Origin: a phage
DNA: 34,554 nt
Assembly (NCBI GenBank): GCA_037431425.1
Contig: GCA_037431425.1_4129.4
Reading direction: 5' to 3' (one strand)
The notes beneath the pieces were generated by a model, which was given only the letters and a program-made list of their open reading frames with translations, made no database searches and was not told where the DNA came from. Numbering within the stretch: position 1 is the first letter of the stretch; each line of letters opens with the position of its first letter. The position numbers and the translations under genes were made by a program. Below, piece by piece: positions 7,133-33,469 of the stretch.

Positions 7133-7229
7133 GAAATAAAAGGGATTGGACTATGGCAAAATGCGTAGGGGGGCTAAAGTGCGGGTAACTTAGCGACTTC
7201 GATAAAGGGGTATTACGAATAAAATGTTA

Positions 7230-7257
7230 TTGACTTTTTATATAAATCGTATAAAAT
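7230..7257 (+). promoter_or_regulatory. sigma70-like promoter driving the family A array
   Basis: -35 TTGACT 7230-7235, 16-nt spacer, -10 TAAAAT 7252-7257; the only obvious promoter before 13923. Confidence 0.5.
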
Positions 7258-7287
7258 ATGATTGATAATAATTTTAAGGGAGTCCCT

Positions 7288-7485
7288 GTGCGTATTTTAA
7301 CTCAAGCAGAACACCACGAAAGACTTATCAATAACATGGCTATGATAATGTATAAGTCCCATGAACGTGGTATTGCCTATAAGCGTGAATTAGTACTGGA
7401 ACTATTCATTGGGACTAACTATCAGGAAAGGTATGTCAACGATTGGATTTGGTATTTAATTGAAGATATAACGAGTAAACTATGA
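7288..7485 (+). CDS. family A small protein
   Basis: Motif FIGTNYQERYV; GTG 7288 after RBS TAAGGGA preferred because track ATG 7258 lies upstream of the predicted transcription start. Confidence 0.6.
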   Translation: MRILTQAEHHERLINNMAMIMYKSHERGIAYKRELVLELFIGTNYQERYVNDWIWYLIEDITSKL

Positions 7486-7676
7486 TAATTTTAACTAAAG
7501 AAGAATATCAATCACTGTTACGTAAAAACTACGTAAAGATTTACAATACAGACACACACGTAGAACGAATGGAGTTATACCTTTTGATTACATTGGGAAC
7601 TAACTATCAGGAAAGATGGGTGATTCAATATATGGATACATTGAAAAATAAAATATTGTCCACGAGGAAACAATGA
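7482..7676 (+). CDS. family A small protein
   Basis: Motif TLGTNYQERWV; ATGA overlap with upstream stop. Confidence 0.7.
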   Translation: MIILTKEEYQSLLRKNYVKIYNTDTHVERMELYLLITLGTNYQERWVIQYMDTLKNKILSTRKQ

Positions 7677-7882
7677 AAACTATAACACGAACCAAATCAT
7701 TAGGTCTTATCTTGAAATACATGGACTTAATGGTGGATATCAGCAAAGACCTTCCTAAAACTGCAATTGATGTTGCAAGAGCAGAGTACCGTCTATTAGC
7801 AGTACTGAATACTAACTATCAGGATGAATATGTTGACGATTGGATTCTATCATTAAAAAAAGATATAAAGAGTAAACTATGA
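7673..7882 (+). CDS. family A small protein
   Basis: Motif LNTNYQDEYV; ATGA overlap. Confidence 0.7.
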   Translation: MKTITRTKSLGLILKYMDLMVDISKDLPKTAIDVARAEYRLLAVLNTNYQDEYVDDWILSLKKDIKSKL

Positions 7883-8091
7883 TTTTTTTAACGCCAGAAG
7901 AATATAAGAAACGTTTTAGTTCGGTCCAGATAGAAATCTTACTTATATACAATTCAAATGCAAACCTTGACTTATCAAGAGTATTAGAAAAAGATTTACT
8001 TATGGGTGCATTTTTGGATACAGACTTTCAGGAGTATTATGTAGGGGAATATTTAATTGCACTCAAGAATTACATAAAGAGCAAACTATGA
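7879..8091 (+). CDS. family A small protein
   Basis: Motif FLDTDFQEYYV; ATGA overlap. Confidence 0.7.
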   Translation: MIFLTPEEYKKRFSSVQIEILLIYNSNANLDLSRVLEKDLLMGAFLDTDFQEYYVGEYLIALKNYIKSKL

Positions 8092-8300
8092 ATATCATTA
8101 ACTCAAATCAATATACAGAACGTGTTGCGGCAAGGCAACTTGAAATCCTCACAATATATGAAGAGACTGATGATTTAAACTTAGCATTAGCATTGGAAAA
8201 TGATATACTATTGGGTGCATTCCTTGGTACTAACTATCAGGAGCATTACTTGAATGAGTATATAATTGTCCTTCAAAAATACATAAAGAGCAAACTATGA
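8088..8300 (+). CDS. family A small protein
   Basis: Motif FLGTNYQEHYL; close paralog of 7879..8091; ATGA overlap. Confidence 0.7.
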   Translation: MNIINSNQYTERVAARQLEILTIYEETDDLNLALALENDILLGAFLGTNYQEHYLNEYIIVLQKYIKSKL

Positions 8301-8554
8301 AACACATAACTGATGATGAACATGAAACTATAATTCGTAAACTAACCCCCATCACAAGGATAGTCTACGGTGATCCCAGCCTCACATGGAACCAAATGCG
8401 AGCTAAAGTTAATGAGATATGGTTGCTGTACTTTATGGGGACTCAATATCAAGATAAGTTTTGCACAGAATATATCGAACAATTAATGAATGTTATACAG
8501 GATAAACTAAATGAACGAATTGTGGAAAAATATGAAAACTTTATCAAGCATTGA
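8297..8554 (+). CDS. family A small protein (C-terminally extended)
   Basis: Motif FMGTQYQDKF; usual stop after the DKL ending is absent, so the ORF reads 13 codons into the next gene. Confidence 0.65.
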   Translation: MKHITDDEHETIIRKLTPITRIVYGDPSLTWNQMRAKVNEIWLLYFMGTQYQDKFCTEYIEQLMNVIQDKLNERIVEKYENFIKH

Positions 8555-8783
8555 GTATCAGACTGCCCTCTTCTCTCTTCTAAACACCCTCCGCACGAAC
8601 AATAAACTTTATAATTCCCGTGAAGCTGATATTGTCAACGCTGATGTATATCTTAATAAATTTATAGGAACTAACTATCAAGAACTGTTTGTTTTACGAT
8701 ATATCTCTGCATTAAGAAACGAAATATCAGATAAAACCCGACAAGCCAGAAGAGAATGGAAGAAACAATGCGACACAGACTAA
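8511..8783 (+). CDS. family A small protein
   Basis: Motif FIGTNYQELFV; start lies within the 3' end of the previous ORF. Confidence 0.6.
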   Translation: MNELWKNMKTLSSIEYQTALFSLLNTLRTNNKLYNSREADIVNADVYLNKFIGTNYQELFVLRYISALRNEISDKTRQARREWKKQCDTD

Positions 8784-9019
8784 ATCACAAAATGTATTGT
8801 AAACTATTACAGGAACTGGCACAGAAACACTATAATACAATATCTTCCATATTACCCTATGATATCATGCGTTTAATTCATAGTGAGGCAGAGATGTTAG
8901 TACTGATGACCGGTACTGATAAAACAGCAATCACCAGATCGATAGAGCAATATATTGATGCACACTGTCAATGTATTAGAACTGAGATATGGAGGCGAGT
9001 AAATGAAAGTACTGAATGA
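8756..9019 (+). CDS. family A small protein (degenerate motif)
   Basis: Motif position reads LMTGTDK; start uncertain (ATG 8756 or 8768). Confidence 0.55.
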   Translation: MEETMRHRLNHKMYCKLLQELAQKHYNTISSILPYDIMRLIHSEAEMLVLMTGTDKTAITRSIEQYIDAHCQCIRTEIWRRVNESTE

Positions 9020-9218
9020 GTATCAGTATCATTGGAGGTTACAAGCTATAAGAGGGAAAGTTGTTAGTATTTCTTTAGACAAGTCTATTGCACAAGAGGA
9101 CAAATGTGTTATAATAGCTGAAATGAAGTTGGGTGTATTTGTAGGAACAAACTATCAAAACATCTACACTGACGTATTATTAAGTGCCTTACGCAACAAG
9201 GTGTTATCCAGAGAATGA
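9003..9218 (+). CDS. family A small protein
   Basis: Motif FVGTNYQNIY. Confidence 0.65.
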   Translation: MKVLNEYQYHWRLQAIRGKVVSISLDKSIAQEDKCVIIAEMKLGVFVGTNYQNIYTDVLLSALRNKVLSRE

Positions 9219-9433
9219 GAAAATTAATAGGTTACGAATATGTTAAGCTTCTAAAAACCTGTAGTAGTAGCAGGGTAAAGATTCAATCTGATAAGAGTAT
9301 TCCTGTTGATCTAAAGCACGCAATGATGGCTGAACTTTATGTAGGTGCACTATTGGGGACAAACTATCAACAAATGTATGTAGACCTATGGGTTGACGCT
9401 CTACTGAAAGAGGTCCAAAGTAAATGCAAATGA
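9215..9433 (+). CDS. family A small protein
   Basis: Motif LLGTNYQQMYV; ATGA overlap. Confidence 0.7.
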   Translation: MRKLIGYEYVKLLKTCSSSRVKIQSDKSIPVDLKHAMMAELYVGALLGTNYQQMYVDLWVDALLKEVQSKCK

Positions 9434-9642
9434 TTCATTTAAGTAAAGATGAATATTATGTTCGTCTTGCAAAAACTTATCCAGCACGTAACGCCGTTTA
9501 TAATAGTAACATTATTGAACGCTCAAAGAAGTTGATTGTAGTAAATGAGATTAAGATGCTTTCAGTCTTAGGAACAAACTATCAAGAGAATGCTGTACTG
9601 ATGTTAATTGATGCCCTCCAGAGAGAGATACAAAGTAAATGA
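9430..9642 (+). CDS. family A small protein
   Basis: Motif VLGTNYQENAV; ATGA-overlap start chosen (track ATG 9424 also possible). Confidence 0.65.
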   Translation: MIHLSKDEYYVRLAKTYPARNAVYNSNIIERSKKLIVVNEIKMLSVLGTNYQENAVLMLIDALQREIQSK

Positions 9643-9878
9643 TTAATTTATCTTTCCATGAATATCAAAAACGTTTAAATGCATCAAGGGATATAAGGAT
9701 TCAAATCTTCAATAACAAAAAATTGAAACCTGACACCAGAAGAATCAAAATAATAGAAGCAGAGTTATGTAACTTCCTGGGGACGAACCATCAGGAAGGT
9801 AAGATAAAAAACTATCTTAGAGAACTCATGATTTGTATCGAAAATAAATGTGATGCTTTGGAGAATAAAAATGATTAA
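9639..9878 (+). CDS. family A small protein
   Basis: Motif FLGTNHQEGKI; ATGA overlap. Confidence 0.7.
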   Translation: MINLSFHEYQKRLNASRDIRIQIFNNKKLKPDTRRIKIIEAELCNFLGTNHQEGKIKNYLRELMICIENKCDALENKND

Positions 9879-10116
9879 ATTATCTCAAGCAAAATATAAA
9901 GAACGCCTGGTGAAAATTGCACCTAGACTTAATGAAATCCATCACGGAGAAGTCATTAAACACGGAAATAAGATGATTATGAAACTTGAGTTAAAGGTGG
10001 GTGCATTCATAGGAACAAACTATCAGGAGTATTATGTAGATGAATACATAATCGCACTTAAGAGATACATTGGAAGAAAACTATATCTACAAACTAAAGA
10101 ATTGTATTGCAAATAA
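9871..10116 (+). CDS. family A small protein
   Basis: Motif FIGTNYQEYYV; ATG 9871 (MIKLSQAKY) preferred over track start 9850. Confidence 0.65.
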   Translation: MIKLSQAKYKERLVKIAPRLNEIHHGEVIKHGNKMIMKLELKVGAFIGTNYQEYYVDEYIIALKRYIGRKLYLQTKELYCK

Positions 10117-10133
10117 ATGCAAGGATAATGAAT

Positions 10134-10397
10134 ATGAAAATGATCAATTTAAGTAAAGATGAATATACCGAGCGTATGACAAAAATTATGCACAAACGTA
10201 ATACAATCTATCACAACCAAAAAATTCAACACAGTAAGAAAATGATTATGATGCGTGAGTTAAAGATGGGTGTATTCTTGGGAACAAACTATCAAGAGCC
10301 AGAAGTAAATCGATTAATTGCTGAGTTACTAATGGAAATCAAAGGTAAGCTGTACTTTTATCAAATGACCCGACCACTGAGGTGTACTGAACGATGA
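10134..10397 (+). CDS. family A small protein
   Basis: Motif FLGTNYQEPEV; ATG 10134 after RBS AAGGA; track start 10107 is TTG. Confidence 0.65.
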   Translation: MKMINLSKDEYTERMTKIMHKRNTIYHNQKIQHSKKMIMMRELKMGVFLGTNYQEPEVNRLIAELLMEIKGKLYFYQMTRPLRCTER

Positions 10398-10645
10398 GTA
10401 CTATGAATAAAATTAATAACATCAGATTATCAGAAAGATTTGATAGAATTGGTGAAGCCAGTAGAAGATACAATAGGGAATATGGTCATTTAAGCTTTTC
10501 TTTGGAAAAGAGATATGAACTTGAAGCAGAGTTTAAAATGCAGAGTCTCTTAGGTACACAGTACCAAGATCATTATGTAGAAAATTGGATTTCACTTCTA
10601 ATCCAATCAATTTATGTAAGGAGTATTAAATGCAAAATGGAATGA
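10394..10645 (+). CDS. family A small protein
   Basis: Motif LLGTQYQDHYV; ATGA overlap. Confidence 0.7.
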   Translation: MSTMNKINNIRLSERFDRIGEASRRYNREYGHLSFSLEKRYELEAEFKMQSLLGTQYQDHYVENWISLLIQSIYVRSIKCKME

Positions 10646-10860
10646 TATACTTAACCAACGAAGAATTTCAAGAAAAAATGATTAAATCAGGTAAGATTAC
10701 TCTTGAACATATACCAAATCAATCAGTATATGAAGTAGCAGCGAATGTATTGTTTCAGAAGCTACCGTACTTTCTGGGAACAGATAAACAAGAATTTTTG
10801 GTACAAAATATGATTGAGCATCTTCTAATGAGTATTAGGGAAAAAGTAAATGCAACATGA
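10642..10860 (+). CDS. family A small protein
   Basis: Motif FLGTDKQEFLV; ATGA-overlap start (track 10630 possible). Confidence 0.65.
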   Translation: MIYLTNEEFQEKMIKSGKITLEHIPNQSVYEVAANVLFQKLPYFLGTDKQEFLVQNMIEHLLMSIREKVNAT

Positions 10861-11110
10861 AATTATATACTTAACACATGATGAGTTAAAAGAAAGACTA
10901 GATAAATCCAAAAGACTTACAAATCAACTTCCTCACAACCCAAACCAAACCCCAGCGGAAAGGAGTGCAGAAGTTTTATTCCAGTCTTTGCCATACCTTC
11001 TTGGAACTGATAGGCAGGAGTATCACGTTGAACGTATAATTAAATATCTTAAAATTACTATTCAGGAAAAGATATATGAACATCAATATAAAAATCTTGA
11101 CGGTCAATGA
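10850..11110 (+). CDS. family A small protein
   Basis: Motif LLGTDRQEYHV; close paralog of 10642..10860. Confidence 0.65.
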   Translation: MQHEIIYLTHDELKERLDKSKRLTNQLPHNPNQTPAERSAEVLFQSLPYLLGTDRQEYHVERIIKYLKITIQEKIYEHQYKNLDGQ

Positions 11111-11327
11111 ATATCATAATATTATAATGAAGACTAATAGTGCAATTTCTAAAAAATCAAATCCAAAATACATACTGGAGCACACATTTGAAGAACGTCA
11201 ATTAGCTTTAGTTGAAGCAAAACTTCTTGCACTCCTAGGAACAAACTATCAAGAAGAGTACGTTAGAAAACTAATATACCTTTTAACTAAACACATCAGG
11301 AAAAGAAATTCAGTACTTGACCGATGA
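11076..11327 (+). CDS. family A small protein
   Basis: Motif LLGTNYQEEYV; 35-nt overlap with previous ORF. Confidence 0.6.
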   Translation: MNINIKILTVNEYHNIIMKTNSAISKKSNPKYILEHTFEERQLALVEAKLLALLGTNYQEEYVRKLIYLLTKHIRKRNSVLDR

Positions 11328-11517
11328 CGAATACGGTGTTATCATCCTTGATGTTATCAATAAAGAATACCACAGGAAACAACGTTACGCTTGTTATGAA
11401 GATAAGCAACTTTCTATAGCTGAACAACAATTAGTTCATTTATTAGGAACAAACTATCAAGAACAATGCACTGAACGTTACCTGTATCTTCTGTCGAGGA
11501 AAGCACAAAGATTATGA
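11317..11517 (+). CDS. family A small protein (non-ATG start)
   Basis: Motif LLGTNYQEQCT; the only in-frame start is TTG 11317. Confidence 0.5.
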   Translation: MTDDEYGVIILDVINKEYHRKQRYACYEDKQLSIAEQQLVHLLGTNYQEQCTERYLYLLSRKAQRL

Positions 11518-11729
11518 AAATTTTAAGCCACAGTGAACAAACAGAATTGTTAATCTTTAATACAAGTAAATTCTTAAACATAACATTGTCTGATATAGAT
11601 GAGGATGAAAAAGAGTTACTTAGAGCAGATTTAAGAGTTCTTTTATATATTGGAACTAACTTCCAAGAGCAATTCGTCGAGGACTACATCGATGAACTAA
11701 AGTCTGCTATCCAACGGAAATACAAATGA
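11514..11729 (+). CDS. family A small protein
   Basis: Motif YIGTNFQEQFV; ATGA overlap. Confidence 0.7.
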   Translation: MKILSHSEQTELLIFNTSKFLNITLSDIDEDEKELLRADLRVLLYIGTNFQEQFVEDYIDELKSAIQRKYK

Positions 11730-11971
11730 AAATTCTTTCAAGTTCTGAATACCACGAACTATTAAGTAGTTTAATTCTAAAGTTGTTTATAACAAAAAGT
11801 ACAAAATTACCGGATGAAGAAGTACGTATTCTAGTAAGTGAAGTATATGTTAAAGCTACACTAGGAACTAATTATCAAGAATGTAATATTAATGATTATA
11901 TCAATGATCTAAAAAGGTATATACAAAACAAATGCGAATCATTACCGAAACAGAATACCGAACAATCATAA
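11726..11971 (+). CDS. family A small protein
   Basis: Motif TLGTNYQECNI; ATGA overlap. Confidence 0.7.
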   Translation: MKILSSSEYHELLSSLILKLFITKSTKLPDEEVRILVSEVYVKATLGTNYQECNINDYINDLKRYIQNKCESLPKQNTEQS

Positions 11972-12159
11972 ATGGACTGTTTTTGAAGTTATTTGCCATT
12001 AACACATCAAAACTACCAGATACGGATAAAATTATTAAGTTAAATGAAATCTACGTTCAAGCAACTCTAGGAACTAACTATCAAGAAGCCAATGTTTATA
12101 ATTACATTAATACACTTAAACGAGAGATTGAACTAAAATGCCAATACACAAACCCCTAG
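11932..12159 (+). CDS. family A small protein
   Basis: Motif TLGTNYQEANV; close paralog of 11726..11971. Confidence 0.65.
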   Translation: MRIITETEYRTIINGLFLKLFAINTSKLPDTDKIIKLNEIYVQATLGTNYQEANVYNYINTLKREIELKCQYTNP

Positions 12160-12359
12160 GAACAGCAGAATACATTGAACTAATGGCAGCAAACTTCTCA
12201 TCCTTTAAGAAACTGATGCAAGAATCAAATAATGATTTAGAATATCATATCAAAAGTTCAGATTTAAGATTGCTACTCACTCTAGGAACAGACAGTCAGT
12301 ACAAATTCGTACAGGAACATATTAGAGCACTTTTAAATGGCATCAGGGCTAAACTATGA
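12138..12359 (+). CDS. family A small protein
   Basis: Motif TLGTDSQYKFV. Confidence 0.65.
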   Translation: MPIHKPLGTAEYIELMAANFSSFKKLMQESNNDLEYHIKSSDLRLLLTLGTDSQYKFVQEHIRALLNGIRAKL

Positions 12360-12571
12360 AGGAAATATCAAACCAAGAGTACTTGGCACTATTCAGAAAA
12401 AATAGTCAAGAATTTTTGAATATTGATACAAGGACTGATATAAGTGAACTTGAAAAAAATCTTTTGCGTTCAGAGATGATAGTACTGACACTCTTAGGAA
12501 CACAACATCAAGAGAGAACTGTTGATTCATATATTGAGATTCTTAAGAAGCTTATACAGGAAAAACTATGA
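12356..12571 (+). CDS. family A small protein
   Basis: Motif LLGTQHQERTV; ATGA overlap. Confidence 0.7.
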   Translation: MKEISNQEYLALFRKNSQEFLNIDTRTDISELEKNLLRSEMIVLTLLGTQHQERTVDSYIEILKKLIQEKL

Positions 12572-12789
12572 GAATCATAACACAACAAGATATGTTTAAG
12601 TTAGCAAGAGATTATACACCTGAATTTAATGCTATAGTATTAAAAAGTTACGATGACCCTTATACACAAGATGTACACTACAATGAATTATGGGTGTATA
12701 TACTTTTAGGTACAAATTATCAAGAGCAAGCAATACAGAGGTATTTGTTAGCTTTACGTGATGCTACTGCTAATGGAGTGATTGTTTAA
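12568..12789 (+). CDS. family A small protein
   Basis: Motif LLGTNYQEQAI; ATGA overlap. Confidence 0.7.
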   Translation: MRIITQQDMFKLARDYTPEFNAIVLKSYDDPYTQDVHYNELWVYILLGTNYQEQAIQRYLLALRDATANGVIV

Positions 12790-12790
12790 T

Positions 12791-13033
12791 ATGAAAGTAC
12801 TATCTGAATTACAAATGGGACAGAGATTTAATAAGTACTATCATTTACTGAAACCTATACAGAGGATTAAATGTTCTTATGATGAGAAACAGGTTTTAAT
12901 TTATGAGCACAAGTTCTTTGTATCATTAGGTACGAATCATCAAGAGTACTATTTGAAGTTGTACTTGATTACATTAATAGATTTAATTCACTATAAAACC
13001 AAACAAGCTAATAAAGAGAAATATGAAAACTAA
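12791..13033 (+). CDS. family A small protein
   Basis: Motif SLGTNHQEYYL; ATG 12791 directly after upstream TAA (track start 12782 is TTG). Confidence 0.65.
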   Translation: MKVLSELQMGQRFNKYYHLLKPIQRIKCSYDEKQVLIYEHKFFVSLGTNHQEYYLKLYLITLIDLIHYKTKQANKEKYEN

Positions 13034-13367
13034 TATACAACTCAAGGTGTATAAATCCTATGAACATATATATATCAAAAGTAGTCTATGTAGAGATGTA
13101 ATGGACTACAAGGGTAAGCCATTCACAATTACGTATGATTCTTATATTAATGATTTATATATATCATTTGTTAATTACGAAAATAAAATATACAAGCACG
13201 TTGATATTAAAGATTTAAGTACTTTATCACCAGAGGAATACTTTCAAGAATCATTAGTATGGGATTTAGAATTTCCTATGCCATTAGTACATAAAATGAT
13301 AGTACTAATGAAAGAAGCTAAACAGAAGCCTAATGGTGATTATGAAGAACACATTATTGAGTACTAA
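13023..13367 (+). CDS. family B protein
   Basis: Motif LSPEEYFQESLVWD; first family B member, embedded in the family A array. Confidence 0.65.
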   Translation: MKTNIQLKVYKSYEHIYIKSSLCRDVMDYKGKPFTITYDSYINDLYISFVNYENKIYKHVDIKDLSTLSPEEYFQESLVWDLEFPMPLVHKMIVLMKEAKQKPNGDYEEHIIEY

Positions 13368-13370
13368 ACA

Positions 13371-13595
13371 ATGAAAATATTATCATACGAAGATTACCGC
13401 AAGCTTCGCGGTATTTTGCGACCAGAAATTCAAAGAATTAATTCTCTTCCTATATCTAATGCAGAATGTTCAGTACTGAAAGATGAGTTAATATTAAAAC
13501 ACACAGTAGGAACTAACTATCAAGCTGATAGTGTTCGATATCTAATTTGGGGATTAATATGCATAGTAAAGGAAAAACAAGCTCAAGTACTGTGA
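13371..13595 (+). CDS. family A small protein
   Basis: Motif TVGTNYQADSV. Confidence 0.65.
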   Translation: MKILSYEDYRKLRGILRPEIQRINSLPISNAECSVLKDELILKHTVGTNYQADSVRYLIWGLICIVKEKQAQVL

Positions 13596-13921
13596 CAATC
13601 GAAGTGAATTCTATTAATGCTGGTAATGCAGTAGATAAGTTCTTTATTGCTCAAGGATACAGGAAAGATATTCATCAATATTGTTCAGTATATGGGGAGT
13701 ACAATAGTACTGAAGATATAATTTATTGGTCAACACATCAAGATTATCTAACTAAAATTGGTATTCCAGATGTTAGTACTTTATCTGAAGAAGAATACTT
13801 TCAGTACAGCTTAGTACATGATTTACCTATACCTTTAGGGTTAATTAAGGGTATGCAGGAAGAGGTTCATAAGCTTAAATCCATGAGTAAAGGTACTTTC
13901 ATTAGAACAGTGCAATACTAG
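13547..13921 (+). CDS. family B protein
   Basis: Motif LSEEEYFQYSLVHD; start uncertain (13547 or 13559). Confidence 0.6.
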   Translation: MGINMHSKGKTSSSTVTIEVNSINAGNAVDKFFIAQGYRKDIHQYCSVYGEYNSTEDIIYWSTHQDYLTKIGIPDVSTLSEEEYFQYSLVHDLPIPLGLIKGMQEEVHKLKSMSKGTFIRTVQY

Positions 13922-13922
13922 C

Positions 13923-13951
13923 TTGACAGTACTTTTCATTACTGATATAGT
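13923..13951 (+). promoter_or_regulatory. sigma70-like promoter
   Basis: -35 TTGACA 13923-13928, 17-nt spacer, -10 TATAGT 13946-13951. Confidence 0.55.
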
Positions 13952-13980: not shown

Positions 13981-14226
13981 ATGTTAAAATTTTTAAATTT
14001 CCTTATCGTCTTGTGTATTATTTTTGGGATTGCACCATTTGTATTGTATTTCATGGATTCAGATGAGATGCAGAAGATGAATTGCACAAAGACTGGACAG
14101 AGTAGAGAAGAGACGATTCTTATGCCTGTTACGGTTATTGTTAACAACATGCCCATTACAAACATGGTCCCTACCCTAACGACAAGGTGGCAGTACTCTT
14201 GTACAGACGGGGAGAGGTGGAGATGA
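13981..14226 (+). CDS. small putative membrane protein (81 aa)
   Basis: Hydrophobic N-terminal stretch LNFLIVLCIIFGIAPFVLYF consistent with one transmembrane helix; has its own promoter. Confidence 0.55.
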   Translation: MLKFLNFLIVLCIIFGIAPFVLYFMDSDEMQKMNCTKTGQSREETILMPVTVIVNNMPITNMVPTLTTRWQYSCTDGERWR

Positions 14227-24827: not shown

Positions 24828-25270
24828 TGTACGAAAGTGATCTTAAGCACGCTGAAGAATTAGTTAATATAGTAAAGTTCTTTCAAAATAATGTAAAGTA
24901 CTTAGACTATAAAGGGGCTTATATTAGTACTATAAGTGTTGGTACAGATATTCTAGGATTAGGCAATGAATATAAGTACGAGTCCCATGATTATGACTTG
25001 GAATTCAAGTACTTCGTATGGGATTCTGGAACTTTCTATTCTATAGATGAAGATGGTAAATATTTTGAATTCACAGAAGAAGAAGTTCTATTCTTAAATT
25101 CAGAAGATGCTTACTTTCAATATAGTACTATATACCCAAACGCGGCGTTAAGAGCTTTAGTAGTTTTTAATGCATTTCTGAAAGAGAACTTTAACAATTC
25201 TATATTCATTGATTTAGATTATGTATATGAACTAAATCAGGTGATATATATGGAGTCCAGAAAAGAATGA
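24827..25270 (+). CDS. family B protein
   Basis: Motif EDAYFQYSTIYP; TAATG overlap. Confidence 0.65.
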   Translation: MYESDLKHAEELVNIVKFFQNNVKYLDYKGAYISTISVGTDILGLGNEYKYESHDYDLEFKYFVWDSGTFYSIDEDGKYFEFTEEEVLFLNSEDAYFQYSTIYPNAALRALVVFNAFLKENFNNSIFIDLDYVYELNQVIYMESRKE

Positions 25271-25722
25271 GTTATGAAAGTGCACTAAAAAAGGCTAATG
25301 ATATTCTACGCGTTGTTCAGTTCTTAAAGGACTATCCTGTTTATGTAGATGATGAACGCAGAGAAGTTTCTAATGGCACGAAGATTACAATTGATTCTTT
25401 ATTTGACACTAGCAGCAACAACTGTAGTACTATTGAATTAGCATACGATTATATTTCATTGAACAGAAAATATGATGAAGTTACGATAGAGCGTCATGAG
25501 GATGAAGAATCTTTTAAAATTTCTGATATTTTATCCCTGAGTACTGAAGAAGGGTACTTCCAGGGAAGTACTCTTTATAATGAAGAAACACTTGACAATC
25601 TATGTACATTTAGTGTACTATATCAGAAGTCAGTACTGGATATATTTTATCTAGACACTGAAAAACTTGATAGGTTAGTTGATTTCGTTACTATAGAAGA
25701 GGCATCCTTTGAGAAAAATTAA
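25267..25722 (+). CDS. family B protein
   Basis: Motif TEEGYFQGSTLYNE; ATGA overlap. Confidence 0.65.
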   Translation: MSYESALKKANDILRVVQFLKDYPVYVDDERREVSNGTKITIDSLFDTSSNNCSTIELAYDYISLNRKYDEVTIERHEDEESFKISDILSLSTEEGYFQGSTLYNEETLDNLCTFSVLYQKSVLDIFYLDTEKLDRLVDFVTIEEASFEKN

Positions 25723-26245
25723 CATTAATGATTATGATGCATTACAAGATTTATCAAAAAAGATTCGCACTATCGTACCAGTACTGAAGAAATGCAGTAC
25801 TGGATTAATCGATCCTAGTACAGTTATTAGTGAGAAGTACAATTTTCATAAACTGTTACAAGGGAATGGTGCATTCCAGAAGTGTGAGATACGTGAGACA
25901 CACGTAATTGATACATCATTGTTTTCTATTGGTGCACCTGTGTCGAATAATACTATTTTCCTAGACAACGCTGGAAATATTCAACAATTAACATTTAAGA
26001 AAAGGAAAAAGAACAATAACATTGGTGTGTATGCGATGAAGTGGGGTCAACCTGATTTGAAGCGTGAAATTCACATCCCTAAGTACAATTACAATGCATT
26101 TGACGAACAGTGTTTTCAACTATCGTGTACTGACCCTGACTATGCTATCATTCAGTTCTATATGGAATTGCAGATTGCATTTAACAGTAATTTGTATATT
26201 AACTTATTGGCGATGAACATCGATGAAGTATTCAAAAACATTTAA
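25709..26245 (+). CDS. family B-like protein (non-ATG start)
   Basis: Motif FDEQCFQLSCTDPD; only in-frame start is TTG 25709, 8 nt after RBS GAAGAGG. Confidence 0.5.
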   Translation: MRKININDYDALQDLSKKIRTIVPVLKKCSTGLIDPSTVISEKYNFHKLLQGNGAFQKCEIRETHVIDTSLFSIGAPVSNNTIFLDNAGNIQQLTFKKRKKNNNIGVYAMKWGQPDLKREIHIPKYNYNAFDEQCFQLSCTDPDYAIIQFYMELQIAFNSNLYINLLAMNIDEVFKNI

Positions 26246-26441
26246 TCGAATTGAATACATGAGAACTGTGAGTGCAGTGTGGGACATATGGTTCACTACT
26301 AAACCAAAAATGGATTACCATGACTTTAAGCTATTGTTCTTCGTTGGCTCTAACAAACAGGATGTTGCAATGAAGGGTTATATTCAGCACTTACAGGAAC
26401 TAATCCAGAAGAGAATATATGAAAATAATAGACCAAGATGA
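26223..26441 (+). CDS. family A-like small protein (outlier)
   Basis: Motif FVGSNKQDVAM in the family A C-terminal position. Confidence 0.55.
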   Translation: MKYSKTFNRIEYMRTVSAVWDIWFTTKPKMDYHDFKLLFFVGSNKQDVAMKGYIQHLQELIQKRIYENNRPR

Positions 26442-26610
26442 TATTGCTAAACTATTCAATATATATTCTTCTAAAATGATGCAAATCGACTCATATAGTA
26501 CTGAATTCAAAGAATTAAAAGTACTGATGTATTTGGGTACACAACATCAGGAACAAGTTGTTAAAGAATATATTGATTCATTACAGAAGGATATACGTTA
26601 TGTACAATGA
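26419..26610 (+). CDS. family A small protein (outlier)
   Basis: Motif YLGTQHQEQVV. Confidence 0.6.
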   Translation: MKIIDQDDIAKLFNIYSSKMMQIDSYSTEFKELKVLMYLGTQHQEQVVKEYIDSLQKDIRYVQ

Positions 26611-27154
26611 GCTTGACTTAGCATTTGAACGTGTAAAAATCTTCATTGAAACTTATCTTATGCACAAAACTATATTGAAAACAAAAGGAATATGGTTCAC
26701 TGATAAATTTCTTACTATGGCTAAGAGAGATGGAATGGAACATCTTTACTGTACAGATAGTGCCAGAATTTCAGTACTGAATTATGATGAAAGTGTATCA
26801 TCTGGTACTAGTTTAATTTCGACATATAATGATAATATTACTAGTATTATGTATACTAAAAATTGTTCAAATGTTTCTGTATATAAAAACTGTGATAGTT
26901 CATTATCGTACAATATCGATCAGTACTTTTATCCTAATACAGAAGAAAACATCTTTCAAAATAGTCTTATATTGGATGATACATCTAATAAATGTATATA
27001 TCTTTATAATAAATTAAAAGAGTACATTGATAACAGTTCAATTAGAACTAATACATTCAGTGTTTCTGTTTTAAATTATAATAAGGAAGATGTGTTTTAT
27101 TATACAGAAATTGAAAGAATACATACAATGTATAAGGAACTACTATGTTATTAA
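26600..27154 (+). CDS. family B protein
   Basis: Motif TEENIFQNSLILDD; ATG 26600 preferred over track start 26558. Confidence 0.6.
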   Translation: MYNELDLAFERVKIFIETYLMHKTILKTKGIWFTDKFLTMAKRDGMEHLYCTDSARISVLNYDESVSSGTSLISTYNDNITSIMYTKNCSNVSVYKNCDSSLSYNIDQYFYPNTEENIFQNSLILDDTSNKCIYLYNKLKEYIDNSSIRTNTFSVSVLNYNKEDVFYYTEIERIHTMYKELLCY

Positions 27155-32307: not shown

Positions 32308-32818
32308 AGATGGTATTCTAATTAGACTAATTAAGAGTTTGATAAAGTTCACAAATAATGATGTCGATACATACAAAGTTGGGGATATTGAATTCAAATC
32401 ATTTGGTATGTACGGTGAAGCCAAAACATATTATGCATCAATAAAATTACAAGAATCACACGAAATGTTAATATCGTTATCATACGAAGATGTTGACCCA
32501 AGATGGAGTTCCAGTATCTCGTTATCGAGAATGGTAATTCGTAATAATCACCGATACATTTCGTCAAGGAATACTCCTAACTTGTTTGATATTGTTTTGA
32601 ATGAAAATACCAACCCTATATCTAAACATGATATCGTACCTTTAACTGATGAAGTTCGTTTTCAGTTGAGCACCATTTGTGACGAAGATGTAATATCATG
32701 TATGAAAATTTACGAGAAGGTTGGGAGTGATATTCCCATGAACTATTACCTAACCATCGATGGAACGTACATCCGAGATGATGTTCTTGTGTACATTGAC
32801 AGTGTTTTTCCAAAATAA
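32300..32818 (+). CDS. family B protein
   Basis: Motif LTDEVRFQLSTICDE. Confidence 0.65.
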   Translation: MDKDGILIRLIKSLIKFTNNDVDTYKVGDIEFKSFGMYGEAKTYYASIKLQESHEMLISLSYEDVDPRWSSSISLSRMVIRNNHRYISSRNTPNLFDIVLNENTNPISKHDIVPLTDEVRFQLSTICDEDVISCMKIYEKVGSDIPMNYYLTIDGTYIRDDVLVYIDSVFPK

Positions 32819-32845
32819 AGACCCGTATGGGTCTTTTTGTGTTTT
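32819..32845 (+). terminator. intrinsic terminator
   Basis: AGACCC-gtat-GGGTCT followed by TTTTTGTGTTTT. Confidence 0.65.
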
Positions 32846-32849
32846 AGGC

Positions 32850-32878
32850 TTTACATAAGCATTCAGGTGTGTTATACT
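32850..32878 (+). promoter_or_regulatory. candidate sigma70-like promoter
   Basis: -35 TTTACA 32850-32855, 17-nt spacer, -10 TATACT 32873-32878. Confidence 0.4.
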
Positions 32879-32905
32879 TGATTTTAAATAAAATTGGAGG
32901 AATAT

Positions 32906-33469
32906 ATGAGTACTGAATTAATTAAAGAAGTCACATTACTTCTGAAACATTGTTTTAAGTACATTCCTGATACTGGTTCACGCCAGTACATTAAAGTTAA
33001 TGAGAAATATAACATTAATGTCTTAAAGAATGAAACCGTTAACAGTTATGCAAACATTGAGTTAGATGTTGAGGACAAATACACAGCATTACACATCATT
33101 TCGTCAGGCGATAGAAAACAAGATTATCGTTCTACATTTTATGATGAGAGTGTTACTGTTGGTTATAACTTTCATAAAAATAAAATTGCGTACAAGAATA
33201 CATACACACATGAAGTAATTGAAGAGTACAATTATAAAATTAAAAAAGACGAGTACGATGTACTTTTATTCAATGCGAACCTCATACATAATGCTTGCAC
33301 AGTTCGCAATCTTATGTTAGCATATGAAATTCCAAAGGTGATAGAAAGAAATGAATTGATAATCTTCAAAACTATTTTAAAATTCAGTACAGAAGAATTA
33401 GAAGAACTAGTACTGGCTCTTAAGATGTTCATCAATGAATATGTGCCTGTTAAATTAGAGGACTTATAA
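32906..33469 (+). CDS. family B-like protein (degenerate motif)
   Basis: ATG 32906 after RBS GGAGG (track start 32894 is TTG); DEYDVLLFNANLIHN at the motif position. Confidence 0.6.
   Translation: MSTELIKEVTLLLKHCFKYIPDTGSRQYIKVNEKYNINVLKNETVNSYANIELDVEDKYTALHIISSGDRKQDYRSTFYDESVTVGYNFHKNKIAYKNTYTHEVIEEYNYKIKKDEYDVLLFNANLIHNACTVRNLMLAYEIPKVIERNELIIFKTILKFSTEELEELVLALKMFINEYVPVKLEDL

What the first reader, a model, noticed from the sequence alone, without database searches (positions are those of the whole stretch)
8297..11517. Signs of gene decay and fusion inside the arrays: lost stops, non-ATG starts, extended overlaps
At 8297..8554 the usual ...DKL-stop ending is replaced by read-through of 13 codons into the next gene (AAACTAAATGAACG where relatives have AAACTATGA). 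The family members at 11317 and 25709 have no in-frame ATG and would need TTG starts. Several neighbours overlap by 28-49 nt instead of 4. Some members have degenerate motifs (8756, 26223, 32906). This is the expected signature of a rapidly turning-over multigene family with some pseudogenising copies.
Basis: seen in the sequence. Interest (0 to 1): 0.4.

Follow-up and report, generated by a model that had tools for sequence, protein, structure and literature searches.

The report
Shifting gene ends in phage arrays
The odd stops, non-ATG starts and long overlaps in this giant coliphage's tandem arrays of small genes are real. They sit on genes that are kept intact under purifying selection in related phages, so they are ordinary drift of gene ends, not gene decay.

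Summary
The window comes from an Asteriusvirus jumbo coliphage (PBECO4/121Q/phAPEC6 group). Its closest relative is ph0011. It holds 30 copies of a ~70-aa three-helix protein (family A, phrog_4148), 27 of them in one array at 7258-13595, and about 36-39 copies of a second family, B.

The reading as pseudogenisation does not.
- **8297..8554:** the 14-aa "read-through" tail is present in all 8 relatives examined.
- **25709:** a 4-nt deletion of a TGATGA junction forces a TTG start. At least 4 other phages share it, and the gene has stayed under purifying selection inside that clade.
- **8756, 26223, 32906:** these "degenerate" members are intact in every relative where their locus was examined (8756 in all eight), with dN/dS of 0.06-0.35.
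- **Overlaps:** several of the 28-49 nt overlaps come from calling the longest ORF. With starts anchored on the family profile, 13 of 25 junctions are ATGA. Six to seven overlaps of 16-40 nt remain, and most of them recur in relatives.
- **11308:** the only lineage-specific lesion is ATG→ATT, which leaves ATT or TTG (11317) as the start.
- **No fusions or fragments:** the window has neither. A few true fragments exist only in relatives.

The tandem array in 121Q is already published. Interest is low.

The parts
7230..7257 (+). Sigma-70-like promoter (TTGACT-16-TAAAAT) directly upstream of the first family-A gene. Probable start of the array's transcription unit.
   Evidence: The sequence is conserved in ph0011, phAPEC6, UE-S1 and slurp01. 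Consensus match only; function is inferred.
7258..13595 (+). Main family-A array: 27 co-directional genes of 64-96 aa (phrog_4148, LGTNYQE motif), interrupted by one family-B gene at 13023-13367.
   Evidence: All copies are full length against the family HMM. The array is collinear with 8 relatives.
7288..7485 (+). Probable true CDS of the first array gene. It starts at GTG 7288, preceded by TAAGGGAG. The same codon is ATG in phAPEC6, ELP-22 and slurp01.
   Evidence: HMM position 1 falls on 7288. The upstream ATG at 7258 abuts the -10 box.
8297..8554 (+). Family-A gene with a conserved 14-aa C-terminal tail encoded by 8510-8551. The stop is TGA 8552-8554.
   Evidence: The tail is present in 8 of 8 relatives, in two forms: NERIVEKYENFIKH/L or DDY(L/W)LTKHEDFIR(S/G). 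It runs ~20 aa longer in phAPEC6 and BF17. Core pN/pS is 0.42, p=3e-4. AlphaFold2 gives pLDDT 96.5, with the tail continuing helix 3.
8511..8783 (+). The next family-A gene. It has two conserved candidate ATGs. 8511 has an AGGA 8 nt upstream and gives a 44-nt overlap. 8532 begins MKTLSS, the family's N-terminus, and gives a 23-nt overlap.
   Evidence: Which ATG is used is unresolved.
8768..9019 (+). Strongly divergent array member (GTDKTAITRS in place of GTNYQE). It is conserved and under purifying selection.
   Evidence: Orthologs in 8 of 8 relatives start at MRH/QRL. dN/dS is 0.26, pN/pS 0.28, p=2e-6. Leave-one-out HMM scores 8 bits. hhalign matches it in register, P=0.002.
11076..11327 (+). 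Family-A gene whose stop was displaced 5 codons downstream by a 7-nt indel, relative to the ATGA junction in 7 relatives. It overlaps 10850..11110 by 35 nt.
   Evidence: dN/dS is 0.07.
11308..11517 (+). Family-A ORF with no ATG. The ancestral start codon is ATT here (11308-11310) and ATG in ph0011 and 7 other relatives. AGGA at 11298-11301 lies 6 nt upstream. An alternative TTG is at 11317-11319.
   Evidence: The same ATT is in Logan contig SRR28398425_415, which is 100% identical to window 9576-11674. Orthogroup pN/pS is 0.43, p=1.5e-4.
11726..11971 (+). Family-A gene with a window-specific lengthened tail. Two codons that are stops in relatives are sense codons here. It overlaps 11932 by 40 nt.
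   Evidence: tail of 11 aa here, 8 in ph0011 and ELP-22, 5 in the other four relatives that carry the gene.
25696..25711 (+). GAAGAGG (Shine-Dalgarno-like, 25696-25702), a 6-nt spacer, then the TTG start codon (25709-25711) of the family-B gene.
25709..26245 (+). Family-B gene (phrog_18780) that must start at TTG. A 4-nt deletion of the TGATGA stop/start junction seen in 121Q and phAPEC6 removed both the upstream stop and the ATG.
   Evidence: shared by the window, ph0011, Ecwhy_1, vB_Ec-M-J and CMSTMSU. pN/pS is 0.14 against 121Q and 0.36 against vB_Ec-M-J, which is also TTG-started (p=2e-6).
26223..26441 (+). Outlying family-A member with a GSNKQD motif, 97-100% conserved in relatives.
32906..33469 (+). 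Family-B-like gene with a degenerate motif (LLFNANL). It is conserved (phrog_36809).
   Evidence: pN/pS is 0.35, p=1e-10.

Best explanation
These are functional genes whose ends drift. They are not decaying copies.

The window carries two old tandem arrays of small paralogous genes from an Asteriusvirus jumbo phage. The genes are packed head to tail on one strand. They are probably transcribed as long units from host-type promoters, with stop and start codons sharing a few bases (ATGA, TGATGA).

At such junctions a 1-7 nt indel, or a point mutation in a stop or start codon, moves the end of one gene or the start of the next by a few codons. In an AT-rich sequence the next off-frame stop is about 13 codons away. 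That produces C-terminal tails of 5-15 aa and overlaps of 10-45 nt.

The protein tolerates this. The conserved core is a three-helix unit that ends in a long C-terminal helix, and the tail simply lengthens that helix. Downstream genes remain translatable because a Shine-Dalgarno-like element or termination-reinitiation coupling can serve GTG or TTG starts. An ATT start would be served much less well.

**Shown here:** conservation of the flagged features, purifying selection, variable tails within orthogroups, and the exact mutations at the junctions.

**Inferred:** the transcription unit, translational coupling, actual start-codon use, and that the proteins act early in infection.
For: 1. **Source.** The window is an Asteriusvirus: 36 phage records match, best ph0011 at 95% over 7200-13600 and 100% at 25200-26700.
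2. **Intact copies.** All 30 family-A copies in the window are full length against the family HMM.
3. **Orthologs.** Every array gene has a full-length ORF counterpart in most or all of 8 relatives. Median dN/dS is 0.07-0.46 for 23 of the 27 array genes that could be scored.
4. **Flagged genes.** pN/pS is 0.06-0.43, with p from 4.5e-3 to 1e-10, counted outside the overlaps.
5. **8297 tail.** It is conserved in 8 of 8 relatives in two same-length forms that keep K, E, F and I in the tail frame. It is predicted with high confidence as a helix extension.
6. **Tail variation.** Tail length varies within 13 of 30 orthogroups across nine genomes, while the cores are conserved.
7. **Junction mutations identified.** A 4-nt deletion at 25709, a 7-nt indel at 11320, ATG→ATT at 11308, an ATG/GTG polymorphism at 7288, and stop→sense changes at 11726 and 9639.
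8. **TTG start at 25709.** GAGG lies 6 nt upstream. Selection persists between two TTG-clade members.
9. **Packing.** 13 of 25 junctions are ATGA. Termination-reinitiation at such overlaps is established (PMC6728339, PMC10666635).
Against: - No expression data exist for any of these genes, so start-site use and coupling are inferred.
- The ATT at 11308 is a genuine loss of a canonical start. ATT is a very poor initiator in E. coli (my knowledge: the infC case and genome-wide start-codon measurements), so this one copy may be on its way out.
- Long overlaps of 35-40 nt lie outside the range where termination-reinitiation has been shown to work well (PMC10666635). Those genes would need their own ribosome binding, and several lack a clear Shine-Dalgarno sequence.
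- 12568..12789 has dN/dS of about 1.2, so not every copy is under simple purifying selection.
- The dN/dS estimates rest on 60-190 codons and on relatives that are mosaic.
Confidence: 0.8

Rival explanations
1. Pseudogenisation in progress: the flagged copies are losing function, and the lost stops, missing ATGs and degenerate motifs are early lesions.
For: - ATG→ATT at 11308 is specific to this phage lineage, and the ORF has no other ATG.
- A gene caller left that ORF uncalled in the Logan contig.
- True fragments and a frameshifted copy exist in relatives.
- Gene content varies at about 8 positions.
- 12568..12789 shows dN≈dS.
Against: - The 8297 tail, the 25709 TTG start and the divergent 8768, 26223 and 32906 genes are shared by phages that differ by 10-40% in protein sequence. 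All show significant purifying selection.
- There is no frameshift, internal stop or truncated copy anywhere in the window.
- Apart from the start codon, the 11308 ORF differs from ph0011 by one synonymous change. That is too recent to judge.
Confidence: 0.1
2. Sequencing or assembly errors at the junctions create apparent lost stops and starts.
For: Some deposited relatives clearly carry homopolymer errors. CMSTMSU, an UNVERIFIED record, lacks single A's in A-runs. ATT versus ATG is a single base.
Against: - The 8297 and 25709 junctions are identical, or vary in a conservative way, in independently sequenced phages from several countries.
- The ATT is reproduced in a separate Logan assembly of run SRR28398425. 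That run may be the same isolate.
- None of the lesions sits in a long homopolymer.
Confidence: 0.03
3. The irregular ends are adaptive. Tails tune what each small protein binds, and weak starts and long overlaps set the relative dosage of the paralogs.
For: - The 8297 tail keeps its length and several residues across two very different nucleotide versions.
- The 10140 and 12791 orthogroups also have invariant 14- and 10-aa tails.
- The tail is modelled as an ordered helix.
Against: - Tail length varies freely within 13 orthogroups, including by simple stop↔sense changes between close relatives. That looks neutral.
- Tail lengths match the expected distance to the next off-frame stop in 32% GC DNA (my estimate of ~13 codons, from the composition).
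- No functional data exist.
Confidence: 0.12

Closest known systems
[quoted passage not shown] 2017, mBio, PMC5646251; repeated for phAPEC6 in PMC7247149)
   Same: Same virus genus and the same arrays. Window genes 25267-26610 are orthologs of 121Q gp377-381, and 32906-34053 of gp395-396. The published interpretation, tandem duplication, fits.
   Different: The papers give one sentence and do not look at gene boundaries, selection or copy-number variation. This window is from a different isolate, closest to ph0011.
PHROG family phrog_4148 (unknown function)
   Same: 8088, 8297, 11317, 11514 and 26223 all match it, with E from 1e-21 to 8e-4.
   Different: 8756/8768 does not match. The family carries no functional annotation. 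There is no Pfam family and no structural relative in PDB or BFVD outside Asteriusvirus.
ATGA/TGATG overlapping gene pairs with translational coupling by termination-reinitiation (Huber et al. 2019, PMC6728339; PMC10666635)
   Same: Co-directional genes; 13 of 25 array junctions are 4-nt ATGA overlaps. 121Q and phAPEC6 have TGATGA at the 25709 junction.
   Different: Coupling has not been measured here. A third of the junctions have overlaps of 8-40 nt, beyond the range shown to couple efficiently.
Non-AUG initiation in E. coli (GUG and UUG are common; AUU occurs at infC)
   Same: TTG at 25709 with a well-spaced GAGG, GTG at 7288 with TAAGGGAG, and ATT at 11308 with AGGA 6 nt upstream.
   Different: The infC AUU is a regulatory device (cited in PMC2268962's reference list; otherwise my knowledge). 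Nothing suggests regulation here. The ATT is a single recent substitution.

Membership tests
phrog_4148 / family A (LGTNYQE three-helix proteins) | Significant match to the family profile over most of its length | tested here: met
   8297 scores E=1.4e-21 and 11317 scores E=5.5e-9 against phrog_4148. Leave-one-out HMM gives 63.7 and 39.1 bits. For 8756/8768 the test is not met by sequence: no PHROG hit and 8.1 bits. Only a weak hhalign match in register (P=0.002) and its position in the array suggest membership.
phrog_4148 / family A | Near-invariant G-T-x-x-Q motif between helix 2 and helix 3, and L in helix 3 | tested here: met
   G48, T49, Q52 and L63 are ≥90% conserved. 8297 has GTQYQ and 11317 has GTNYQ. 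8768 has GTDK plus a 6-residue insert, and 26223 has GSNKQ; both are partial.
Pseudogene / decaying copy | Frameshift, internal stop or truncation relative to intact homologs | tested here: not met
   All 30 window copies cover HMM positions 1-2 to 68-75, and there are no fragments in any frame. Fragments are found only in BF17, PBECO4, SD-15_S21 and slurp01.
Pseudogene / decaying copy | Relaxed selection (dN/dS near 1) in the orthogroup | tested here: not met
   Flagged genes have pN/pS of 0.06-0.43, p ≤ 4.5e-3. The exception is an unflagged gene, 12568..12789, at about 1.2.
Pseudogene / decaying copy | Loss of a usable start codon | tested here: inconclusive
   11308 is ATT where all 8 relatives have ATG, and a TTG lies 3 codons downstream. 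25709 has TTG with a good Shine-Dalgarno sequence and continued selection. Actual initiation cannot be measured with these tools.
Gene fusion | One ORF containing two family domains, or domains of two neighbouring genes | tested here: not met
   hmmsearch finds one domain per ORF throughout the window. The 8297 read-through enters the next gene in a different frame.
Translationally coupled overlapping pairs (termination-reinitiation) | Co-directional genes with a 4-nt or 1-nt stop/start overlap | tested here: met
   13 of 25 junctions are ATGA.
Translationally coupled overlapping pairs (termination-reinitiation) | Downstream translation depends on upstream translation | not testable with these tools
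   This needs reporter or ribosome-profiling experiments.
121Q-type tandem array (Hua et al. 2017) | Orthology and synteny with the arrays of 121Q, PBECO4 and phAPEC6 | tested here: met
   The array is collinear with 8 relatives. 121Q gp377-381 and gp394-397 align at 59-97% aa identity.

The most novel reading that the evidence does not exclude
The two arrays could be a diversified arsenal of early, host-directed small proteins, for example inhibitors or decoys against host defence or housekeeping factors. On that reading the freely varying C-terminal helix extensions and the occasional fast-evolving copy (12568..12789, dN/dS ~1.2) are the surface on which target specificity evolves. Boundary drift would then be a cheap way of generating new variants rather than noise.
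Probability: 0.1. Interest if true: 0.5.

Novelty: already known. Interest (0 to 1): 0.15.

Why it matters
The main value is for annotation. In these jumbo phages the longest-ORF rule and ATG-only rules both mislead. Deposited records disagree on starts, skip genes and call fragments. PBECO4 annotates only 19 of roughly 30 genes in this stretch, and the 11317 ORF is uncalled in the Logan contig.

The result also gives a clean small example of how compact ATGA junctions convert tiny indels into tails and overlaps without harming the genes. It does not reveal a new mechanism, and it does not say what the arrays do.

Tried and rejected
- **IMG/VR, 8297 protein:** no relatives found.
- **ATT/ATG junction as a DNA pattern:** no hits in IMG/VR or JGI metagenomes.
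- **Complete E. coli genomes:** no match to 11200-11600.
- **Exact look-up of the TTG-started 66-aa product:** not on record.
- **Pfam:** no family for any of 10 proteins.
- **Fold search with the confident family-A model:** nothing below E=2 in PDB. In BFVD only Asteriusvirus paralogs match, so no function could be transferred.
- **AlphaFold2 of the family-B gene 25709, using window paralogs:** poor model (pLDDT 56), so no fold search was run on it.
- **Profile search of 1.84 billion representatives:** only 91 clusters. These include weak 121-aa relatives in Klebsiella RaK2/K64-1 phages. The family is lineage-restricted.
- **tRNA, Rfam and tandem-repeat scans of the window:** empty or irrelevant.
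- **Rejected: programmed frameshifting or fusion at 8504-8517.** The read-through is in a different frame from the next gene, and there is no two-domain product.
- **Rejected: recent duplication.** Paralogs are at most 51% identical.
- **Literature on Asteriusvirus phages:** searches contain nothing on these genes beyond the one-line tandem-duplication remark.


Full report
**What the window is**

All substantial ORFs lie on the + strand of 32% GC DNA. The region 7200-13600 matches 36 phage records, all Escherichia or Salmonella jumbo phages of the genus Asteriusvirus (PBECO4, 121Q, phAPEC6 and others). The best match is ph0011, at 95% here and at 99.9-100% for 25200-26700 and 32750-34100.

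Two paralog families fill most of the window.
- **Family A** has about 70 aa and an LGTNYQE motif. It has 30 copies: 27 in one array at 7258-13595, plus 14899, 26223 and 26419.
- **Family B** has 100-200 aa and an acidic-x-(Y/F)FQxSL(V/I)xD motif. It has about 36-39 copies between 13023 and 34053.

Family A is phrog_4148, function unknown, with no Pfam match. A profile search of 1.84 billion representative proteins finds only 91 clusters. Nearly all come from Asteriusvirus-type contigs, with weak relatives in Klebsiella RaK2/K64-1 phages.

Hua et al. [quoted passage not shown] The phAPEC6 paper repeats this (PMC7247149).

**Checking the observation**

AAACTAAATGAACG is at 8504-8517, and AAACTATGA is at six family-A junctions. 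The 8297 ORF continues 14 codons past DKL.

The "usual" ending is not usual, however. Only 6 of 27 array genes end that way, and 16 of the 30 members have tails of 3-20 aa beyond the conserved core.

The 11287-11517 ORF has no Met codon, and the first ATG of 25709..26245 is about codon 110. Both claims are correct.

The 28-49 nt overlaps are partly an artefact of using the first possible start. I anchored N-termini on the family HMM and on ATGs conserved in relatives. With those starts, 13 of 25 junctions are 4-nt ATGA overlaps. The real longer ones are:

| Start of downstream gene | Overlap (nt) |
|---|---|
| 8532 (or 8511) | 23 (or 44) |
| 8768 | 16 |
| 9003 | 17 |
| 11076 | 35 |
| 11308 (or 11317) | 20 (or 11) |
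| 11932 | 40 |
| 12138 | 22 |

The "degenerate" members are indeed divergent. In a leave-one-out HMM, 8756 scores 8 bits and 26223 scores 26 bits, against 36-78 bits for the array members. No ORF in the window contains two domains, so there is no fusion.

**Are the flagged copies decaying?**

I fetched the homologous stretch from eight relatives: ph0011, phAPEC6, PBECO4, ELP-22, UE-S1, SD-15_S21, BF17 and slurp01. I also fetched smaller pieces from Ecwhy_1, CMSTMSU, 121Q and vB_Ec-M-J.

*1. 8297..8554.* All eight orthologs read through in the same way. There are two versions of the tail, NERIVEKYENFIKH/L and DDY(L/W)LTKHEDFIR(S/G). Both are 14 aa long and share K, E, F and I and conservative positions in the tail's frame. 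The alternative frame is unrelated in that segment (NELWKN versus IICSQN). In phAPEC6 and BF17 the stop is also gone, and the ORF runs about 20 aa further. The non-overlapping core has pN/pS 0.42 (p=3e-4) against PBECO4. AlphaFold2, using 63 family sequences, gives pLDDT 96.5. The model has helices at residues 6-24, 31-46 and 52-84, and the tail is simply the end of helix 3. The tail is therefore an old, tolerated and possibly useful feature, not a fresh lost stop.

*2. 11317.* In ph0011 the junction reads ATGCAGTAC TTGACC. In the window it reads ATTCAGTAC TTGACC. The other seven relatives have ATG AAA CAC TTG. A single G→T has therefore destroyed the ancestral ATG at 11308 in this lineage. 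AGGA sits 6 nt upstream of that codon, and TTG lies three codons downstream. The only other difference from ph0011 in the ORF is synonymous. The orthogroup is under purifying selection (pN/pS 0.43, p=1.5e-4). A Logan contig from run SRR28398425 is 100% identical to window 9576-11674 and also carries ATT. Its gene caller skipped the ORF. This is the one genuine, recent lesion. Whether the gene is still made, from ATT or from TTG, cannot be decided here.

*3. 25709.* 121Q and phAPEC6 have ...TTTGAG TGATGA AAGTT..., a stop and start sharing TGATGA. The window, ph0011, Ecwhy_1, vB_Ec-M-J and CMSTMSU lack four bases there. That change:
   - removed both the stop and the ATG;
   - lengthened the upstream gene by two codons;
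   - left TTG at 25709 as the first start, with GAGG 6 nt upstream.

   The gene is a full 178-aa ORF in every verified relative examined; only the UNVERIFIED CMSTMSU record, which carries homopolymer indels, breaks it. pN/pS is 0.14 against 121Q. It is 0.36 (p=2e-6) against vB_Ec-M-J, which also lacks the ATG, so selection has continued after the ATG was lost.

*4. 8756/8768, 26223 and 32906.* All are intact in the relatives examined, with dN/dS of 0.06-0.35.

**The general pattern**

Gene order is collinear across all nine genomes. Content differs at a few places, most strikingly just upstream of 8297:

| Phages | Extra genes upstream of 8297 |
|---|---|
| This window | 0 |
| phAPEC6, BF17, ELP-22 | 1 |
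| ph0011, UE-S1 | 2 |
| PBECO4, SD-15_S21, slurp01 | 3, one of them an N-truncated fragment |

A frameshifted copy occurs in BF17. Decay therefore does happen in the family, but not at the flagged sites and not in this window.

Duplications are old. The best paralog identity is 28-51%, against 60-100% for orthologs.

Gene ends are fluid. Tail length differs within 13 of 30 orthogroups. Some of these differences are plain stop↔sense substitutions: the window's 11726 and 9639 genes read through codons that are stops in relatives. Starts shift too. 7288 is GTG here and ATG in phAPEC6, and the 12138 ATG is CAG in six relatives.

Median dN/dS is at most 0.46 for 23 of the 27 array genes that could be scored. 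The exceptions are 12568 (1.16), 7258 (0.69), 7673 (0.61) and 13371 (0.58).

**How it most likely works**

The genes are packed with shared stop/start bases behind a conserved sigma-70-like promoter at 7230-7257. At ATGA or TGATGA junctions, indels of a few bases or single substitutions displace a stop or a start. In this AT-rich DNA the next off-frame stop is expected after roughly 13 codons. That is my estimate from the composition, and it matches the observed tails. The core fold is untouched, because the tail only lengthens the last helix.

Downstream genes can still be initiated through Shine-Dalgarno-like elements, or through termination-reinitiation, which is documented for 4-nt overlaps (PMC6728339, PMC10666635). 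Re-initiation has been shown to work from mutant non-AUG codons when a matching mutant initiator tRNA is supplied (PMC2268962).

The junction mutations, the conservation and the selection are shown here. Transcription, coupling and start use are inferred. None of the phAPEC6 array proteins I searched for (gp42x-gp47x) appears in the text of the published virion proteome paper. That fits non-structural, probably early proteins, but their function remains unknown.

**Verdict**

This is ordinary boundary plasticity in a known, old, selected tandem gene family. One copy (11308) has just lost its ATG, and real fragments exist only in relatives. Novelty is nil beyond annotation detail, and interest is low.

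Noticed in passing
window 13023-34053: Family B has about 36-39 tandem genes of 100-200 aa that share an invariant F in a motif [DE][DE]x[YF]FQx[ST]L[IV]xD. By eye this resembles the potyviral NIa/TEV site ExxYxQ(S/G). In a low-confidence model the motif lies in a helix. Function is unknown.
   Followed up: partly
window 12568-12789: This family-A gene is intact in all nine genomes but has dN≈dS (pN/pS 1.15-1.19). The changes cluster in helix 1, the GTN(Y/K/H)Q motif and the C-terminus. Selection is either diversifying or relaxed.
   Followed up: partly
window 8292-8300 (junction of 8088..8300 and 8297..8554): Copy-number hot spot. Relatives carry 1-3 additional family-A genes here, including an N-truncated fragment in PBECO4, SD-15_S21 and slurp01. 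The flanking junctions share AAGAG(T/C)AAACTATGA, which suggests unequal recombination.
   Followed up: partly
window 7258-7300: The first array gene probably starts at GTG 7288 (TAAGGGAG upstream; ATG in phAPEC6, ELP-22 and slurp01), not at ATG 7258. That ATG abuts the -10 box of the conserved promoter-like site at 7230-7257.
   Followed up: partly
L016 (Logan SRR28398425_415), equal to window 9576-11674: A public read-set assembly contains a contig 100% identical to 2.1 kb of the window. It is probably the same phage isolate.
   Followed up: yes
P0191/P0240 (Escherichia phage UB and ~357-kb 'E. coli' contigs); P0187/P0228 (Klebsiella phages RaK2, K64-1): Elsewhere in Asteriusvirus genomes, a family-A module forms the N-terminus of a 269-aa protein, which is a natural fusion. 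Weak 121-aa relatives exist in RaK2-like Klebsiella phages.
   Followed up: no
window 11726-11971 and 9639-9878: Window-specific lengthening of tails. Codons that are stops in relatives (…LPK*NT*; …CKGN*) are sense codons here, giving tails of 11 and 8 aa and overlaps of 40 and 8 nt.
   Followed up: yes
L003 (PBECO4), L005 (UE-S1), L011 (CMSTMSU): The deposited annotations of this region are inconsistent. PBECO4 of about 30 genes. UE-S1 calls several truncated ORFs. CMSTMSU (UNVERIFIED) has homopolymer indels that break genes.
   Followed up: partly
window 13923-13951: The best sigma-70-like promoter match in the region (TTGACA-17-TATAGT with an upstream TG, 11 of 12 positions). It lies between the family-B gene 13547..13921 and the ORF at 13981, and could start a second transcription unit.
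   Followed up: no
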